Source: Escherichia coli
Lineage (GTDB): Bacteria > Pseudomonadota > Gammaproteobacteria > Enterobacterales > Enterobacteriaceae
Length of the DNA stretch: 64,000 bases
Assembly (NCBI RefSeq): GCF_965641715.1
Contig: NZ_OZ282453.1
Reading direction: 5' to 3' (one strand)
The notes beneath the pieces were generated by a model. That model ran no database searches. It saw only the letters and a list, made by a program, of their open reading frames with translations, and was not told where the DNA came from. Position numbers and translations under genes: made by a program. Below, piece by piece: positions 4,540 to 22,941 of the stretch (position 1 is the stretch's first letter; each line of letters opens with the position of its first letter).

Positions 4540-5052
4540 TCATTGTGATATTTCCATCTCTGTGATTAATACCGGATAAGCATTTAATTGCAGAGTTTGC
4601 ACGAAATTATCGCAGATAACTGGCAATAACAATAACCCATCAGCCCGCTGCTGTAATACCTCCATTCGTTCTACTGATTCAACATTAACAACCAAACCAA
4701 GGGCATTTAGCGATTTAAGGATCTCCAGATGTTCACTCATCCAGCGCAGAGAAAAAGGATCATCACCAATTATAAAAACAGGCCCCCAGCCGGTTAATAA
4801 CTGGCGTTTCATTACGGAACCAGGATGAAGTCGAGTACATATTACAGGAAATACCCCCTGTTGCGATGGTTCCGATGATGTGGATAATTCAGAAATATTT
4901 TCCATTGTTAGTGAAGAATTAACATGCATTAATAATGGTGAAACAACCTCACTTTCCTTGCTAGTAATGGCTGCACTAATCTGAAAGGAAAATAACAATA
5001 TTATTACGTATAAACTCATTTTTAACATAACACATTCAATCCGTTTATTCAT
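4540..5052 (-). CDS. Hypothetical protein with N-terminal hydrophobic signal/anchor (170 aa), AT-rich
   Basis: ORF with hydrophobic N-terminus (MSLYVIILLFSFQISAAITS); low GC relative to flanks; sits between two H-repeat fragments. Function unknown. Confidence 0.4.
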   Translation of the reverse strand: MNKRIECVMLKMSLYVIILLFSFQISAAITSKESEVVSPLLMHVNSSLTMENISELSTSSEPSQQGVFPVICTRLHPGSVMKRQLLTGWGPVFIIGDDPFSLRWMSEHLEILKSLNALGLVVNVESVERMEVLQQRADGLLLLPVICDNFVQTLQLNAYPVLITEMEISQ

Positions 5053-5118
5053 GTTATAGAATAATGATGCTATAAATCATCATTAATGTTCAATTATTTA
5101 ATCACACAATTTAAAAAA

Positions 5119-5622
5119 TCATTGACCAATGTGAATTGGCAATGTACCACTCAAGTTAAAATCACTGAATATTTTATCAATTTCTCTTGCAGTTTCTATA
5201 TATTTAACCTCTTTCGTACTTGCATTATAAATAGCCCAAGCCTCGGGATGGGATGTTCCACCAAACCTTACAAAAAAACTTGATTTCATATTATTATATA
5301 AATTAACATCAGGAAAAGGATCTTCTCCAAAATTAGTAGTATTGAATAATGAAAGTTCGTATCGCTTAGAAAATTCTGTTGGTAGGATAGCTTCACTGCC
5401 ATCAATAGCATTCATCCAGAGTTTGTTACCATTATATTCCAACAATAATCTCTGTTTTGCATGTGTCTTATCTCGTTCTTTAACGACAGCGAATACCTTT
5501 TTAACAACTTGCTGTGCGGATGGTCCTATTGTATTACCAAAAGCTGGCAACCCGATTTTGCCATAAACACTCTCCTGAATGAAATAAATATCCGTTTTAT
5601 CGGCCTCGACAATATCTACCAT
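5119..5622 (-). CDS. Hypothetical protein (167 aa), AT-rich, no recognisable motif
   Basis: Intact ORF between H-repeat fragments; the position suggests an orphan toxin/immunity-type cargo ORF, but nothing in the sequence confirms this. Confidence 0.4.
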   Translation of the reverse strand: MVDIVEADKTDIYFIQESVYGKIGLPAFGNTIGPSAQQVVKKVFAVVKERDKTHAKQRLLLEYNGNKLWMNAIDGSEAILPTEFSKRYELSLFNTTNFGEDPFPDVNLYNNMKSSFFVRFGGTSHPEAWAIYNASTKEVKYIETAREIDKIFSDFNLSGTLPIHIGQ

Positions 5623-10594: not shown

Positions 10595-11051
10595 TTATCC
10601 ACGAGGCGCAAAAGCGGCGGCGGCTTCCTGCGCCCTTTTCAGGCACTCCTTACACACCGATTTTTCTGGCGCTTCCTCACCCTCATCGTTGTTATCATTC
10701 TGATCGGACGATGCATTACTATCATTTTGCTCAGCCGCTAAACTTTTATCATCTGCCAGCGCTTTCAGAACCGCCGGTTGCAGCGTCGGCACCGGCGTTC
10801 CCGGACTACCGCCGCTATTGAGATTGATTTTCGGCCCGACGATGTCCACGCCCCCTGAATGGATGACCACAAACGAACCGCCCACCTTCAGGCTTATCCG
10901 GCTGCTGCTCTCCAGCACCACATCGCCCTCCACCTTTAACCACGCCACCGCAGTCAATGGCATCACCGGTTCTGGCGGTAGGTTTATCGTCGATAAAGGC
11001 GGAAGAGGTGTTTCCGGCTCTTAAGAAATATTTACGCACATGCACCAGCAT
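10595..11051 (-). pseudogene. Remnant fusing the 3' end of a PAAR gene to the 3' tail of a vgrG gene (internal deletion)
   Basis: One frame encodes FIDDKPTARTGDAIDCGGVV (PAAR C-terminus, compare PAAR 15133..15417); the adjacent frame encodes LKVEGDVVLESSSRISLKVGGSFVVIHSGGVDIVGPKINLNSGG (VgrG tail, compare vgrG2) followed by an acidic linker. Confidence 0.6.
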
Positions 11052-11082
11052 TACAGAAAATAAAACCTGCGATACATTTTAA

Positions 11083-11859
11083 TCAATAAGGTTGCTTTAC
11101 CAAGCTTCCATCGATATTGATGGAAAATTCATTAGACCTAATATGAACAGAATGTTGCTCATCATCTTTATCTAATATTTGATTAACAAAAAAAAACGTA
11201 TTTTTATCAAATTCATAATTATCACATCCCTCTCCACTAAATGATATAGCTCTAAAATCATATTCATTACATGAGTATCTTTTCATCAAAATAGAGAGGA
11301 ATGTTTCATTAATTGATTTTAATACAAACCATTTTCTCCTAACAAGTTTGTAGTTTAATGTTTTTATATGATAATTATTTAAACTGGGGAGAAATGAATG
11401 CATATCATTCAATTTTACATCAAAAGATATTTTTTTACCTGCCGTAATTTCCACCCATCGGCTCAAATTCAAATCAAGCTCAAAGGGACAAAAGCCTCCT
11501 AGATAGTCTAAGCTAATATTTCCTGATGTAATCAAGAATTCGTCATCACACAAAGCATCAAATACATCTCCATTTCCTTTTTGGAAGTTCTTTGGATAAT
11601 ATATTCTGGGGAGAAAATACGATTTAGTACTACTGTTATAAAAAGTTATAGTAGCTAAAATATTTTCAGCATGTGGCTTAACCACCAATTTAACAACAAC
11701 ATCATTTGTTAATTCATTACTTATATTTTCCTCTGGCGCTAAATTATGGCTAAGATAAATAATTGGTTTCCCATTGTCACTTCTTCGTTCAAAACCGAAT
11801 CTGTATTTTTTTACAAAAAGATTCTCATTATCTATTGCAATTGCAATAGATAATGGCAA
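11083..11859 (-). CDS. Hypothetical protein, candidate immunity protein for the upstream metallopeptidase-like effector; N-terminal signal peptide is out of frame
   Basis: Body ORF starts at TTG 11859; a 31-codon ORF from ATG 11923 (one nt after the effector stop) encodes MKRLAFYNLNYVVLMVFFSLFFAIIYCNCNR in the other frame; the two frames would join if one base were removed from the homopolymer tract. Confidence 0.45.
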   Translation of the reverse strand: MPLSIAIAIDNENLFVKKYRFGFERRSDNGKPIIYLSHNLAPEENISNELTNDVVVKLVVKPHAENILATITFYNSSTKSYFLPRIYYPKNFQKGNGDVFDALCDDEFLITSGNISLDYLGGFCPFELDLNLSRWVEITAGKKISFDVKLNDMHSFLPSLNNYHIKTLNYKLVRRKWFVLKSINETFLSILMKRYSCNEYDFRAISFSGEGCDNYEFDKNTFFFVNQILDKDDEQHSVHIRSNEFSINIDGSLVKQPY

Positions 11860-11924
11860 AAAACAAAGAAAAAAAAACCATCAGTACAACATAATTTAGA
11901 TTATAGAAAGCCAACCTCTTCATC

Positions 11925-12728
11925 TTATTTCCCCGTCAACTCATCAAAACATTTTTCTATCTCTTTTATTTTATCCTCTACTTTTTTTGCTAACATATTC
12001 TCATCTTGAGCTTCAATATCTTCATCATTTAATTTTATATAAAAATATCTTTCAACATTATATGCATTCTCAAATAACTGATCTTTACGCAATGTAACCA
12101 GATCATTAGCCACTGAAACATGTTTCTCATAGCTAACTTCATCCTTATTACTTGTTGCGAACTTATTAATACCCGTATAATCCTGAGTCCACATACCACC
12201 TTTTTGATTGTCACCCCAATACCAAAATATATGGGACATTTCATGGCAAAGTGTACTTACATGAGAGTCTCTACCTGTAACCGACTGTTTTATACCATGT
12301 CTGTATTCAAAATGCGCTCCGATATTTACAATGTAAGGAGGATCAAGATGTGGACTAATAAAAGCAGCAAATTCATTGCAGTTCGTATAATCTTTATAGC
12401 TTTCGATCGTCAAACCATTTGCAATCGTCATTATTCGTCTGATGCCATCCATTATGAATAGTCTCGCTTGCATTCGTTTCCCAGTATCTTCCCCAACTTT
12501 TCTGATTTTTATAATGTCCTCGCCTTTAAGGCCAAAAACTTTAATAAAATCTCGTTGTTGTTCCCCCTCCCATGACATAATATCATCTGCTCTTTTCAAT
12601 AAAACCATTTTCTGTGCTTTACAAGCCTTACTCATCATTATTTTAAATTTATTTGTAATTTTTTGCGGTACTACACATACTTGCGACTCGGGTTGTGAAG
12701 TCCCACTAGTATTATTATTCCCTGCCAT
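11925..12728 (-). CDS. HExxH zinc-metallopeptidase-like T6SS effector candidate (268 aa)
   Basis: HEMSH motif followed by WTQDYTG (loosely aspzincin-like); start ATG at 12728 (MAGNNNTSG) overlaps the vgrG2 stop; the longer ORF 11925..13103 is not used because it overlaps vgrG2. Confidence 0.55.
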   Translation of the reverse strand: MAGNNNTSGTSQPESQVCVVPQKITNKFKIMMSKACKAQKMVLLKRADDIMSWEGEQQRDFIKVFGLKGEDIIKIRKVGEDTGKRMQARLFIMDGIRRIMTIANGLTIESYKDYTNCNEFAAFISPHLDPPYIVNIGAHFEYRHGIKQSVTGRDSHVSTLCHEMSHIFWYWGDNQKGGMWTQDYTGINKFATSNKDEVSYEKHVSVANDLVTLRKDQLFENAYNVERYFYIKLNDEDIEAQDENMLAKKVEDKIKEIEKCFDELTGK

Positions 12729-20995: not shown

Positions 20996-21215
20996 AATGA
21001 CCTCCCTGATTTATTCACGGACCAAATGATTCTCACCATGCAGCAAAGGGTGCCAGTGCAGCGTTACACTCATCTTTACATTTTCAGGTACGCTACCGCC
21101 CGGGTTTCCGGCATCCGCCATCTCCCTCATGAAAGCGTAACTCCTTACTGACACTCATTTTTTACACGTACAAAAACAACATCCTGCACGAAGGCAGGAT
21201 GTTGTTGACTCAGAT

Positions 21216-21734
21216 TTATGCTTCCAGCGGTGCACGCCAGTCATCGGCACCAGAAGTACCGGATTTGATGTGCTCCCACTCAACCTTACGGTATGCCAGT
21301 GATACTGCGAGCAATTGCGTAAACTCACGCTGTGCAGGGTCCTGGCAGTGCGGCATGTGCAGGTTCATGTCCACAATCGTCGCGTCAGTAAGACGTGTGG
21401 TGAAGTAGTGCTCCTGCTTGCCTTCAACTGAAGTACGCCACCAGTGCAGCTCCACTTTCGGCAGCATTTCACCGGAGGCCAGCGCGTTGTACAGCAGCGG
21501 AACGGCTTTGTTCAGCGCCACGGTGAAAATGAACGGTTTGTGCGCGCGCTGCCCGGAAGGTTGACCAGACTGTGGATCGGTTGGAACAGTAACGTTATGC
21601 AGAAACTCCTGCACCAGCATTTCATCTTCGTGTCCCTGCACGTAGATATTGCCGACAGAATCTGCGGTGAAAGCACCGGCAGTGATGTTCCCCTGGGTCT
21701 GACCTGTAATTGAAATGTAACATGGGGTTGGCAT
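21216..21734 (-). CDS. hcp: Hcp tube protein (172 aa)
   Basis: Hcp family sequence (MPTPCYISITGQTQGNITAGAFT...); first gene of the minus-strand hcp-vgrG cargo operon. Confidence 0.88.
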   Translation of the reverse strand: MPTPCYISITGQTQGNITAGAFTADSVGNIYVQGHEDEMLVQEFLHNVTVPTDPQSGQPSGQRAHKPFIFTVALNKAVPLLYNALASGEMLPKVELHWWRTSVEGKQEHYFTTRLTDATIVDMNLHMPHCQDPAQREFTQLLAVSLAYRKVEWEHIKSGTSGADDWRAPLEA

Positions 21735-22437
21735 TTATGAACTCCTTGTGAAATTATCAACTGCTGTTTTACGAACAACCCGTCGTTAATCCCCGACGGG
21801 TTAGAGTGTGATGCGGCTCACATCAGGAACCACACCCTTTTCTTTATTCGAGTTACAGGCACACGTAATTAGCACCTACTGAAAAACTCTTTTATGGTGT
21901 TTAAATATATTTTTAGTCAATTTCAGAACACGGTCACATAAGCTAAAAATATATCAACTTCAACAGCAGAATTATCCATAACGTATCTTCCCCCCCCATA
22001 AAAATCCACAGCCGCGTCAAAAACAAATTATTACGACACTTACTCCGCCATCGTTCCAGCACGCAATTAAGACATTCCTTAAAGGAATTTCTTATGATGT
22101 ATTGCCAGCAATTAATTAATTGATAAAACCATACATAAAACTTATTAATCAATTTAATAAATGCATATAAATCAATATATTATGGTATTTTATTAACCGT
22201 AAAATCATATTCATCAAGTCTATAAATACCAAAATTTATTTCACTATAATATATTAGCAAGGAAGAATACATCTCTTTCTAAAATATAAATAGTTCTTTT
22301 AATATTTTATTTCATGAGTAGAATACTGATCACAACAGAAGGAAGGTTACATTATCTAACTGCCACTGAAACGGTATCTTCGGTATTTTTATGCAGTACG
22401 AAAATGCTGTGCTCATGGCCTGAACGGGAACATTTTT
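21735..22437. promoter_or_regulatory. AT-rich divergent control region between hcp (-) and tssB (+)
   Basis: ~700 bp non-coding, strongly AT-rich (long A/T tracts 22080..22320), single GATC at 22328..22331; expected to hold the promoters of both T6SS operons. Confidence 0.35.
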
Positions 22438-22941
22438 ATGAGCAAAATGAACAACAATGGCGGCAGTGTCGCGCCGAAAGAAAGAATCAGCGTTCGGTAT
22501 ACACCAAAAGTTGATGGGGTGGCTGCTGATATCGAATTGCCGCTGAATTTATTGATCACCGGCAATCTGAAAGGGAAACCAGATAACACGCCGTTGGACG
22601 AGCGAACTGCCATTGCTATCAACCGCTATAACCTCAACGCAGTCATTTCAGAAGCTGACATTGAACGGGAGTTTGTTGTTCCGGCTGAACTCAGTGACGC
22701 TCCCAATGAGCAAATGTACGTCAACCTGAAAGTCAAATCTATGGATGACCTTTCTCCGGACCATATTGCCAGCCAGGTACCAGAAATAAAACGTCTTCTC
22801 GAATTGCGTGAAGCTCTGGTCGCACTTAAGTCTCCACTAGGCAATATTCCGGCCTTCCGCGCACAACTTCAGGCGCTACTGGAAAACGAAGACAGCCGCG
22901 AGCAGCTGATCCATGAACTGGGTATCGCCGTTCAGAAATAA
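22438..22941 (+). CDS. tssB: T6SS sheath small subunit TssB (VipA)
   Basis: 167 aa, TssB-like sequence; first gene of the core operon. Confidence 0.88.
   Translation: MSKMNNNGGSVAPKERISVRYTPKVDGVAADIELPLNLLITGNLKGKPDNTPLDERTAIAINRYNLNAVISEADIEREFVVPAELSDAPNEQMYVNLKVKSMDDLSPDHIASQVPEIKRLLELREALVALKSPLGNIPAFRAQLQALLENEDSREQLIHELGIAVQK

What the first reader, a model, noticed from the sequence alone, without database searches (positions are those of the whole stretch)
21735..22437. AT-rich 700 bp divergent control region between the two T6SS operons
Long A/T tracts consistent with nucleoid-protein (H-NS-type) silencing and candidate iron or methylation control; only one GATC (22328..22331) was seen near the tssB side. 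The promoters of both operons must lie here, but no site could be assigned with confidence.
Basis: inference. Interest (0 to 1): 0.3.

Follow-up and report, generated by a model that had tools for sequence, protein, structure and literature searches.

The report
Known T6SS-2 divergent promoter region
This AT-rich 703-bp gap is the already-studied two-way control region between the hcp and tssB operons of the E. coli aspV type VI secretion island; it is ordinary, except that the hcp leader holds two conserved RNA hairpins I did not find described.

Summary
Positions 21735-22437 are exactly the 703-bp gap between hcp (minus strand) and tssB (plus strand). GC is 32.9% against 50.6% for the window, and there is one GATC.

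The locus is the aspV-linked E. coli T6SS-2 island. Sister alleles of this spacer have been studied in APEC, EHEC and Shigella sonnei. In those strains H-NS represses both sides, phosphorylated CpxR binds the hcp2B promoter, and Fur and iron have no effect. The H-NS reading and the claim that both promoters lie here are therefore supported. Iron or Dam-methylation control is not: no Fur box exceeds chance, and the GATC is not conserved.

I compared 62 unique spacers from seven allele lineages.
- Both ends are conserved.
- The roughly 300-bp middle keeps its length and 25-30% GC but not its sequence.
- The tssB side has an invariant -10 (TAGAAT, 22319-22324) and an invariant 10-mer in the leader.
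- The hcp leader carries two covarying stem-loops, specific to the hcp strand (21810-21836 and 21776-21803). The second has GGA in its loop, 47 nt upstream of an invariant ACAAGGAG ribosome-binding site. That layout suggests CsrA control, but this is inference only.

No transcription start site was mapped.

Verdict: already known, low interest, with a modest lead on the leader RNA.

The parts
21735..22437 (.). Whole hcp-tssB divergent intergenic region, 703 bp, 32.9% GC
   Evidence: RefSeq annotates nothing here in a 99.9%-identical genome.
21742..21747 (-). hcp Shine-Dalgarno AAGGAG inside ACAAGGAG, invariant in all allele lineages. It resembles a CsrA site.
   Evidence: The CsrA reading is inference.
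21776..21803 (-). HP2: stem-loop in the hcp 5' leader (AACCCGUCG-GGGAUUAA-CGACGGGUU). The stem covaries. GGA is kept in the loop in all seven lineages.
21810..21836 (-). HP1: 10-11 bp stem-loop in the hcp leader (GGUGUGGUUC...GAGCCGCAUC), rich in G.U pairs, so it forms only in the hcp sense
21807..21822 (.). Perfect CRP core palindrome TGTGA-N6-TCACA. It overlaps the HP1 3' arm. It is kept at 9/10 in E. whittamii and Pseudocitrobacter and is absent from the EHEC-type, CUVET-type and L080 alleles.
   Evidence: (0 of 200 shuffles reach 10/10; the full 22-mer scores only 14/22).
21891..21920 (-). Candidate hcp promoter: -35 TTGACT (21920-21915), 18-nt spacer, weak -10 CATAAA (21896-21891). The predicted start is near 21884.
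   Evidence: Read. A TTG-type -35 is aligned in most lineages. The published CpxR deletion probe begins exactly at TTGACT (PMC6534853). Inference; no start site was mapped.
21921..21944 (-). Segment whose removal abolishes CpxR-P binding in the APEC allele. The window allele differs at two bases (GTAAT becomes GTGAC).
   Evidence: PMC6534853, with primers mapped onto. Alleles compared.
21951..22260 (.). Variable AT-rich middle. It is 34-49% identical between distant lineages, yet 25-30% GC in all of them, and spacer length is conserved. Proposed H-NS binding platform.
   Evidence: H-NS binding is inferred from composition and from the literature on sister alleles.
22068..22088 (.). Conserved island TAAGACATTCCTTAA, with the palindrome ATTCCTT-A-AAGGAAT. 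The CUVET allele has a perfect 14-bp palindrome TAAGGATATCCTTA here. Candidate operator; factor unknown.
22170..22182 (+). IHF-consensus match AATCAATATATTA (WATCAANNNNTTR). The aligned site is kept with 0-2 mismatches in the other lineages.
   Evidence: (12.5% of shuffles also contain a perfect match).
22263..22303 (+). Conserved blocks upstream of the tssB promoter (GAAGAATAC..CTCTTT and AAATAGTTCTTTT). The -35 region is a poor match to TTGACA, which suggests dependence on an activator.
22319..22324 (+). Candidate tssB -10 hexamer TAGAAT (TAAAAT in some alleles), present in all seven lineages. The predicted start is near 22331.
   Evidence: One metagenome variant (L044) has it deleted.
22328..22331 (.). 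The only GATC, at about -3 to +1 of the candidate tssB promoter. Not conserved outside the window, UTI89 and E. whittamii alleles.
22411..22424 (+). Invariant block GCTCATGGCCTGAA in the tssB leader. GCUCAU can pair with the start codon AUGAGC (22438-22443).

Best explanation
This is the divergent regulatory region of the aspV-linked E. coli T6SS-2 island. It holds the promoters and 5' leaders of hcp(2B), read leftward, and of the tssB-to-hcp2A structural operon, read rightward.

Proposed mechanism:
- The roughly 300-bp middle (20-30% GC), together with the AT-rich promoter flanks, acts as a binding platform for H-NS. H-NS silences both promoters under laboratory conditions.
- Specific factors act on the conserved ends. 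On the hcp side, phosphorylated CpxR binds just upstream of a TTGACT -35. On the tssB side, an unknown activator acts at a promoter with a good -10 (TAGAAT) but a poor -35.
- Expression is then gated a second time at the RNA level. The hcp leader, about 150 nt, folds into two conserved stem-loops. The second presents GGA in its loop, 47 nt upstream of an ACAAGGAG ribosome-binding site. This layout fits two-site binding by a CsrA dimer. The tssB leader carries an invariant block that can pair with the start codon.

Shown here: geometry, composition, homology, the conservation pattern and RNA covariation.
Taken from papers on sister alleles: H-NS repression, CpxR-P binding, promoter activity of the hcp-proximal fragment, lack of Fur control, and a negative CsrA effect on hcp3 and tssC.
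Inferred: the exact -10/-35 hexamers and start sites, that H-NS binds the middle of this spacer, and CsrA binding to the hairpin.
For: Identity of the locus:
- Pfam confirms Hcp, TssB and TssC, plus VgrG and TssE/F.
- RefSeq shows the full order tssB-C-E-F-G-tagH-J-K-L-H-vasI-A-M-vasL-hcp opposite hcp-vgrG.
- tRNA-Asp and an rrn operon lie next to the island.
- UTI89 carries the sister allele, 91.7% identical.
- Published APEC hcp2B promoter primers map onto window 21899-21944.

Composition: 32.9% GC against 50.6%, minimum 19.5%.

Population data:
- 552 of 5426 complete E. coli genomes carry this spacer allele family.
- About 1900 further genomes share hcp plus only the first ~107 bp of the spacer at ~80% identity.

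Conservation across 62 unique spacers in 7 lineages:
- The ends are conserved and the middle is not. Against the distant lineages, the hcp leader is 53-69% identical, the tssB promoter 52-77%, and the middle 34-49%.
- The middle is 25-30% GC in every lineage, and most spacers are about 680-705 bp long.

RNA structure:
- HP1 and HP2 are predicted by RNAalifold.
- 96.7-98.3% of cells are paired, against 33-47% when the partners are slid.
- 5 pairs change on both sides; at most 14 of 500 shuffles reach that.
- 43 of 184 cells are G.U pairs. These would be A.C mismatches on the other strand, so the structure is specific to the hcp sense.
- The leader's folding z-score is -2.84 in the hcp sense, and HP1 does not form in the fold of the opposite strand.
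- GGA is kept in the HP2 loop and ACAAGGAG is invariant.
- The covariance model finds a single copy in the window, at 82.9 bits.

Literature:
- H-NS represses T6SS2 in APEC, and Fur and iron do not (PMC5874247). H-NS also represses it in EHEC (PMC5363993, PMC13141884).
- CpxR-P binds the hcp2B promoter, and the fragment drives lacZ (PMC6534853).
- A negative CsrA effect on hcp3 and tssC, and AGGA motifs near the start codons, are reported in PMC13141884, citing Wang 2017.
Against: - No transcription start site is available for this allele. The one paper that mapped starts in the EHEC allele (Kim et al. 2022, J Microbiol 60:928) is not held.
- The candidate hcp -10 (CATAAA) lacks the conserved final T. 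No consensus promoter is enriched.
- The published H-NS data I could read are expression changes in hns mutants of sister alleles, not binding to this sequence.
- The H-NS high-affinity 10-mer is not matched better than chance.
- The 24-bp segment needed for CpxR-P binding in APEC differs at two bases here.
- HP1-HP2 is absent from the C. koseri, Salmonella and Enterobacter-like hcp leaders.
- The tssB-leader helices show no two-sided covariation, and that leader's folding energy is unremarkable (z -0.71).
- The covariation statistics rest on only 7 lineages.
Confidence: 0.75

Rival explanations
1. A Fur plus Dam-methylation epigenetic switch like the EAEC sci1 promoter. Fur would sit on a box overlapping the -10, and a GATC inside that box would be protected from, or blocked by, methylation.
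For: The region is AT-rich, so weak Fur-like matches exist. A GATC lies at about -3 to +1 of the candidate tssB promoter.
Against: The best Fur match is 12/19, and 92.5% of shuffles do as well. The single GATC overlaps only an 11/19 match. It is missing in four of seven allele lineages. In APEC, T6SS2 does not respond to iron limitation or fur deletion (PMC5874247).
Confidence: 0.04
2. CRP-cAMP control. The perfect TGTGA-N6-TCACA at 21807-21822 would be a working CRP site that activates a proximal hcp promoter or blocks elongation from the distal one.
For: The core matches 10/10, and 0 of 200 shuffles reach that. It is kept at 9/10 in E. whittamii and Pseudocitrobacter. A CRP site was also predicted in silico in the S. 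sonnei allele (PMC10924462).
Against: The flanks are poor: the full 22-mer scores 14/22, and 27.5% of shuffles do as well. The left half-site is deleted in the EHEC-type and L080 alleles and not conserved in the CUVET type. The site lies inside the conserved leader structure and overlaps the HP1 3' arm. It has no canonical -41.5 or -61.5 spacing to a plausible -10. In S. sonnei, conditions chosen to relieve H-NS or CRP repression did not raise reporter output (PMC10924462).
Confidence: 0.12
3. HP1 and HP2 are not protein-binding sites. They would instead be a leader attenuator or an mRNA-stability or processing element. HP2 would act as a weak intrinsic terminator, or the hairpins would protect the hcp mRNA 5' end after processing.
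For: HP2 is a GC-rich 9-10 bp stem. It is followed by UUGUUCGU in this allele and by UUUUUC in Pseudocitrobacter. A hairpin in the hcp3 3' UTR has been proposed to stabilise that mRNA in EHEC (PMC13141884).
Against: The tail after HP2 is U-poor in the EHEC-type and CUVET-type alleles, and the terminator scan does not call it. The loop sequence (GGAUUA) is conserved more strictly than a pure structural element would need. GGAUUA also recurs in unrelated hairpin loops upstream of hcp in C. koseri and Salmonella.
Confidence: 0.25
4. There is no dedicated silencing platform. The middle is AT-rich and fast-evolving simply because it is unconstrained spacer, and regulation resides entirely in the two conserved ends.
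For: The middle is only 34-49% identical between lineages. No H-NS motif exceeds chance.
Against: Most spacers are about 680-705 bp and the middle is 25-30% GC in all seven lineages despite sequence turnover. Conserved islands persist inside it, including an IHF-like site and a palindrome. hns deletion derepresses both sides in sister alleles (PMC5874247, PMC5363993).
Confidence: 0.1

Closest known systems
APEC/ExPEC T6SS2 hcp2B-vipA2 divergent promoter region (Ma et al. 2018, PMC5874247; Yi et al. 2019, PMC6534853)
   Same: It is the same locus: aspV island, hcp2B-vgrG opposite tssB-to-hcp2A. The UTI89/APEC-type allele is 91.7% identical over the spacer and 94-99% identical at the promoter-proximal ends. 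The published primers map onto the window. It is repressed by H-NS, bound by CpxR-P on the hcp side, and unresponsive to Fur.
   Different: The window carries a distinct allele: 98-99% identical to about 200 genomes and 92% to the UTI89 type. There are two substitutions in the 24 bp required for CpxR-P binding, and the middle is only 85% identical.
EHEC EDL933 / S. sonnei / PCN033 T6SS-2 bidirectional promoter 't6sP' (PMC13141884, PMC10924462; Kim 2022; Hu 2021)
   Same: The architecture and spacer length match (696 bp). The hcp leader is homologous, with HP1, HP2 and the ribosome-binding site. The tssB -10 and the leader block TCATGGCCTG are shared. It is silenced by H-NS, and there is a terminator-like hairpin after hcp.
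   Different: The middle of the spacer is unrelated in sequence (41% identity). The CRP-like palindrome and the GATC near the tssB start are absent. An extra small ORF lies between tssB and tssC.
EAEC sci1 (T6SS-1) promoter with overlapping Fur box and GATC (Brunet et al. 2011, PMC3145626, as cited in PMC5874247)
   Same: It is also an AT-rich T6SS promoter in E. coli upstream of tssB.
   Different: It belongs to a different T6SS subtype. Here there is no Fur box above chance and no GATC within a Fur-like site. The sister allele does not respond to iron (PMC5874247).
H-NS silencing of Salmonella SPI-6 T6SS (Brunet et al. 2015, PMC4468533, cited in PMC5874247)
   Same: It is a horizontally acquired T6SS with AT-rich promoter DNA upstream of tssB and hcp, silenced by H-NS.
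   Different: The T6SS subtype is different and there is no sequence homology. Binding was shown directly there, whereas for this locus type the papers I could read show only expression changes.
CsrA/RsmA-repressed leaders (E. coli glgC-type two-site binding; P. aeruginosa RsmA on T6SS mRNAs, PMC5530658, cited in PMC13141884)
   Same: One GGA sits in a hairpin loop and another overlaps the ribosome-binding site, 47 nt apart. From memory, the reported bridging range of a CsrA dimer is about 10-63 nt. A negative CsrA effect on hcp3 is reported in EHEC.
   Different: No binding data exist for this leader. There are only two GGA motifs. HP1 has no GGA.

Membership tests
E. coli T6SS-2 (aspV island) hcp2B/tssB divergent promoter region | Lies between divergently transcribed hcp (followed by vgrG) and tssB, the first gene of the structural operon that ends in a second hcp | tested here: met
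E. coli T6SS-2 (aspV island) hcp2B/tssB divergent promoter region | Island inserted beside tRNA-Asp (aspV) | tested here: met
   tRNA-Asp at 43483-43559 and an rrn operon at 51.7-56.9 kb.
E. coli T6SS-2 (aspV island) hcp2B/tssB divergent promoter region | Sequence homology to the experimentally studied APEC/UPEC fragment | tested here: met
   91.7% identity to UTI89 over the spacer. The APEC primers map at 21899-21920 with no mismatch and at 21922-21944 with two mismatches.
E. coli T6SS-2 (aspV island) hcp2B/tssB divergent promoter region | CpxR-P binding determinant upstream of the hcp -35 | tested here: inconclusive
   The homologous 24 bp (21921-21944) is present but carries GTGAC where APEC has GTAAT. 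No GTAAA-N4-8-GTAAA match with 2 or fewer mismatches lies there.
H-NS-silenced xenogeneic promoter | GC content well below that of the host genome, over several hundred bp | tested here: met
   32.9% against 50.6%; a 250-bp core near 20%.
H-NS-silenced xenogeneic promoter | H-NS occupancy, and derepression in an hns mutant | not testable with these tools
   Derepression was shown for sister alleles (PMC5874247, PMC5363993). No data exist for this allele.
Fur/Dam epigenetic switch (sci1 type) | Fur box overlapping the core promoter elements | tested here: not met
   Best match 12/19; the mean best in shuffles is 12.4.
Fur/Dam epigenetic switch (sci1 type) | GATC inside the Fur box, conserved | tested here: not met
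   The single GATC at 22328 overlaps only an 11/19 match and is absent from four of seven lineages.
CsrA-repressed mRNA leader | At least two GGA motifs, one in a hairpin loop and one overlapping the ribosome-binding site, spaced within dimer reach | tested here: met
   The loop GGA is at 21790-21792 and the ribosome-binding-site GGA at 21743-21745, 47 nt apart. Both are conserved in seven lineages.
CsrA-repressed mRNA leader | Direct CsrA binding, and a CsrA-dependent change in translation or stability | not testable with these tools
   Only an indirect report exists for EHEC hcp3 and tssC (PMC13141884, citing Wang 2017).
CRP-dependent promoter | Consensus CRP site at a canonical distance (-41.5, -61.5, ...) from a start site | tested here: inconclusive
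   The core is 10/10. There is no mapped start site and no good -10 at the required spacing, and the site lies inside the conserved leader.
Described RNA families (Rfam 15) | Match to a curated covariance model | tested here: not met
   Only chance-level hits in 21500-22700 at E up to 10. Nothing falls in the spacer at gathering thresholds.

The most novel reading that the evidence does not exclude
The hcp(2B) 5' leader of Escherichia/Pseudocitrobacter T6SS-2 contains a two-hairpin cis-regulatory RNA element that I did not find described. HP1 and HP2 covary, and a GGAUUA loop is conserved. Together with the invariant ACAAGGAG ribosome-binding site, this would form a two-site CsrA (or other RNA-binding protein) switch gating Hcp synthesis. 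In parallel, the invariant TCATGGCCTG block of the tssB leader would sequester the tssB start codon. If so, both arms of the system would carry a post-transcriptional lock in addition to H-NS silencing. That could help explain why promoter swapping or hns deletion alone fails to give a firing T6SS-2 in EHEC and S. sonnei.
Probability: 0.3. Interest if true: 0.45.

Novelty: already known. Interest (0 to 1): 0.22.

Why it matters
T6SS-2 is the most common type VI system in E. coli. It is silent in the laboratory, and replacing its promoters or deleting hns has not been enough to make it fire in EHEC or S. sonnei. The region itself is a known regulatory hub, so it adds nothing new at that level. 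The practical value of this work is a map of what is conserved across seven allele lineages:
- an invariant tssB -10;
- upstream blocks that point to an unidentified activator;
- an IHF-like site;
- two covarying hairpins and an invariant start-codon-pairing block in the leaders.

These give specific, mutable targets for anyone trying to switch the system on.

Tried and rejected
- Consensus promoter and terminator scan of the spacer: not enriched, and no site could be assigned.
- Rfam at permissive and at gathering thresholds: nothing relevant.
- Motif scans against dinucleotide shuffles for Fur, the H-NS 10-mer, RcsB, PhoP, Fis, ArcA and OmpR: none exceeded chance.
- Hidden small genes. The 66-aa ORF at 22314-22514 is intact only in close relatives, and I saw no ribosome-binding-site motif before it. 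The 69-aa ORF at 21943-22152 starts with TTG and was not compared across alleles. No ATG ORF of 11 codons or more has a ribosome-binding site. The 'ATG GCC TGA' mini-ORF inside the invariant block is not conserved as an ORF.
- Sigma-54 promoter, considered because the V. cholerae cluster with the same gene order uses VasH. No GG-N10-GC match was seen by eye at the conserved blocks, and the cluster has no vasH.
- Phase-variable poly-C tract. The C-run at 21990-21997 is C8 here and C5, C6 or C9 in relatives, but it is not placed between promoter elements.
- Long-range tssB-leader helices (GCCA/UGGC and ACGGUAU/AUGCUGU): 94% of cells paired, but no two-sided covariation and no better than shuffles.
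- Covariance-model search for HP1-HP2 upstream of hcp in C. koseri, Salmonella and Enterobacter-like loci: no hit.
- Genome-contig scan with TssB: only 3 loci returned.
- Papers: Kim 2022, the EHEC start-site paper, is not held. The Journet and Cascales review is not held. [quoted passage not shown]
Full report
**Observation**

The interval 21735-22437 is exactly the gap between two ORFs. One is a 172-aa ORF on the minus strand (21216-21734), which matches Pfam T6SS_HCP at E 1.5e-32. The other is a 167-aa ORF on the plus strand (22438-22941), which matches T6SS_VipA (TssB) at E 1.7e-44. VgrG and a DUF4123 protein follow hcp. TssC, TssE and TssF follow tssB.

GC is 32.9% against 50.6% for the window, with a minimum of 19.5% at 22100-22299. 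There is one GATC, at 22328-22331. About 2.0-2.3 would be expected, so this is not a notable depletion. AT-richness is uneven. The hcp-proximal ~100 bp is 46% GC and the tssB leader 41%. Sigma-70-like consensus sites are not enriched: 6 against 4.0 +/- 2.5 in shuffles.

**What the locus is**

The spacer is present at 90% identity or more in 552 of 5426 complete E. coli genomes, always on the chromosome and never annotated. In a 99.9%-identical genome, RefSeq shows tssB-C-E-F-G-tagH-tssJ-K-L(icmH)-H-vasI-tssA-M-vasL-hcp on one side. On the other side it shows hcp-vgrG followed by effector, immunity and PAAR genes. In the window the island abuts tRNA-Asp (43483-43559) and an rrn operon. UTI89 carries a sister allele.

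This is the aspV-linked 'T6SS-2' of E. coli, called T6SS2 in APEC with hcp2B-vgrG2 opposite vipA2-to-hcp2A (PMC5874247). The primers that Yi et al. used for the APEC hcp2B promoter map directly onto the window. The deletion-probe primer matches 21899-21920 exactly. The distal primer matches 21922-21944 with two mismatches, and matches UTI89 exactly.

**What is already known about this region type**

- APEC: deleting hns raises clpV2, hcp2A and hcp2B, whereas iron limitation and fur deletion do not (PMC5874247).
- APEC DE719: the hcp-proximal fragment drives lacZ. Phosphorylated CpxR shifts it only when the distal 24 bp are present. cpxR deletion lowers hcp2B-vgrG-xmtU but changes the tssB (vipA)-operon genes tested less than twofold (PMC6534853).
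- EHEC: H-NS represses the cluster (PMC5363993). The 'bidirectional promoter' has been swapped for inducible promoters without obtaining secretion. CsrA is reported to affect hcp3 and tssC negatively (PMC13141884).
- S. sonnei: spacer reporters stay near-silent under the conditions tried (PMC10924462).
- Porcine ExPEC PCN033: its T6SS is reported to depend on RcsB. It carries the EHEC-type allele of the same island.

So 'H-NS-silenced divergent control region' is established knowledge for this locus. 'Iron or methylation control' belongs to a different E. coli system, sci1.

**Tests of the iron and methylation idea**

The best Fur-box match in the spacer is 12/19, and 92.5% of dinucleotide shuffles do as well. 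The lone GATC sits at about -3 to +1 of the candidate tssB promoter. It is missing from the Pseudocitrobacter, EHEC-type, CUVET-type and L080 alleles. I reject the idea.

**Comparative anatomy**

I collected spacers from three sources: a metagenome scan with the hcp start plus its ribosome-binding site, five E. coli genomes, and E. whittamii and Pseudocitrobacter. This gave 62 unique full spacers in seven lineages.

Most spacers are about 680-705 bp long. Identity of the window allele to the four distant lineages, by segment:

| Segment | Identity |
|---|---|
| hcp leader | 53-69% |
| hcp promoter segment | 33-50% |
| middle (21951-22260) | 34-49% |
| tssB promoter | 52-77% |
| tssB leader | 50-70% |

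The middle is nevertheless 25-30% GC in every lineage. The ends are therefore under sequence constraint. The middle is under compositional and length constraint only. That is what an H-NS binding platform would predict, although binding was not tested here.

Small conserved islands survive in the middle:
- TAAGACATTCCTTAA at 22068-22082. It forms a palindrome with 22074-88, and the CUVET allele has a perfect 14-bp palindrome here.
- An IHF-consensus match at 22170-22182.

**The hcp side**

In the hcp sense, the leader folds into two stem-loops: HP1 (21810-21836) and HP2 (21776-21803). They are followed about 30 nt later by ACAAGGAG and the start codon.

- RNAalifold recovers both hairpins.
- On a well-registered alignment, 96.7% of cells are paired, against 36-45% when the partners are slid.
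- 5 pairs change on both sides; 6 of 500 shuffles reach that (similar).
- 43 of 184 cells are G.U pairs, which would be A.C mismatches on the other strand. HP1 does not appear when the opposite strand is folded. These are therefore RNA structures of the hcp transcript.
- The leader's folding energy has z = -2.84.
- The HP2 stem differs between lineages (CCCGUCG/CGACGGG, CCUGCCA/UGGCAGG, CCUGUC/GGCAGG, CCUAUCG/UGAUGGG). The loop always keeps GGA (GGGAUUAA, UGGAUAG, GGAAAUUA).
- A covariance model finds one copy in the window (82.9 bits). It finds none upstream of hcp in C. koseri, Salmonella or Enterobacter-like loci. Those leaders have other hairpins whose loops also read GGAUUA.

A GGA in a hairpin loop, 47 nt upstream of a GGA in the ribosome-binding site, is the classic layout for two-site CsrA binding. 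Taken with the reported CsrA effect on EHEC hcp3, I consider CsrA gating the most likely function. It remains an inference. An attenuator or stability role is a real alternative.

Because both hairpins are conserved as RNA, the hcp start site should lie upstream of 21836. The best candidate promoter is TTGACT (21920-21915), an 18-nt spacer and CATAAA (21896-21891). The CpxR-dependent segment lies immediately upstream, at 21921-21944. The window allele has GTGAC there where APEC has GTAAT, so CpxR control of this allele is uncertain.

A perfect CRP core (21807-21822) is statistically unusual: 0 of 200 shuffles match it. However, it lies inside the leader, overlaps HP1 and is lineage-specific. 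I leave it unresolved.

**The tssB side**

All seven lineages share a -10 hexamer, TAGAAT or TAAAAT (22319-22324). Upstream of it lies a conserved but non-consensus -35 region (GTTCTTTT), and further upstream conserved blocks at 22263-22303. This is the signature of an activator-dependent promoter. The predicted start is near 22331, giving a leader of about 107 nt.

One metagenome variant (L044) has this -10 deleted.

The leader contains an invariant 10-mer, TCATGGCCTG (22413-22422). It is not coding. Its GCUCAU part can pair with the start codon AUGAGC. All six pairs form in six of seven lineages, with one compensatory A-U in Pseudocitrobacter. A competing long-range pairing is compatible with the sequences but shows no covariation. 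The leader's folding energy is unremarkable (z -0.71). This block remains unexplained.

**Other checks**

- No conserved small ORF and no Rfam family lies in the spacer.
- The C8 run at 21990-21997 varies (C5, C6, C9) among relatives, but it is not placed between promoter elements.
- Ten nt after the hcp stop codon there is a perfect 13-bp hairpin followed by U's (21170-21206, minus strand). It matches the terminator and stabiliser element described between hcp3 and vgrG3 in EHEC. The leftward 'operon' may therefore be hcp alone plus read-through.

**Verdict**

Iron or Dam control is not supported. The only material I could not find described is the covarying two-hairpin hcp leader and the invariant tssB-leader block. 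These are modest leads, and they bear on why T6SS-2 has resisted activation. No start site was mapped, so all promoter coordinates given are candidates.

Noticed in passing
window 21170-21206 (minus strand): Ten nt after the hcp stop codon there is a perfect 13-bp hairpin (AACAACAUCCUGC / GCAGGAUGUUGUU) followed by UUUGU. It looks like an intrinsic terminator. It matches the 'h3R' terminator and stabiliser described between hcp3 and vgrG3 in EHEC, so hcp and vgrG may be separate transcription units. The consensus scan missed it.
   Followed up: partly
window 43483-43559 and 51706-56937: tRNA-Asp lies at the edge of the island. A second tRNA-Asp and a complete rrn operon (5S, 23S, tRNA-Ala, tRNA-Ile, 16S) follow. 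This places the T6SS at the aspV insertion site.
   Followed up: partly
window 22413-22422: The 10-mer TCATGGCCTG in the tssB leader is invariant across seven allele lineages whose surrounding leader is only 50-70% identical. It is not coding. It can pair with the tssB start codon. No partner was identified.
   Followed up: partly
window 21807-21822: A perfect CRP core TGTGA-N6-TCACA lies inside the transcribed hcp leader and overlaps the 3' arm of HP1. It is present only in the window, UTI89, E. whittamii and Pseudocitrobacter lineages.
   Followed up: partly
window 21990-21997: This C8 homopolymer varies among close relatives (C5, C6, C9). It is not located between recognisable promoter elements.
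   Followed up: yes
window 22068-22088: A conserved island with the palindrome ATTCCTT-A-AAGGAAT sits in the otherwise variable middle. The CUVET allele has a perfect 14-bp palindrome TAAGGATATCCTTA here. The half-sites resemble an RcsB box but with the wrong spacing.
   Followed up: partly
L044 and L120 (metagenome contigs): L044 has a deletion of about 36 bp that removes the tssB -10 and the start of the leader. L120 has a 6-nt duplication inside the HP2 loop. Both are natural variants that may alter expression.
   Followed up: no
L121 (Citrobacter koseri) and L123 (Salmonella enterica), about 90-110 nt upstream of hcp: These hcp leaders lack HP1-HP2 by covariance-model search. They do contain other hairpins whose loops read GGAUUAG or GGAUUAA, plus further GGA motifs. 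This hints that the loop motif, rather than the stems, is the shared functional element.
   Followed up: partly
window 4900-5300, 11050-12050, 42000-43300, 46200-46300: These are other stretches with 200-bp GC below about 32%. Most fall in the effector and immunity region or at the island edges. I did not examine them.
   Followed up: no
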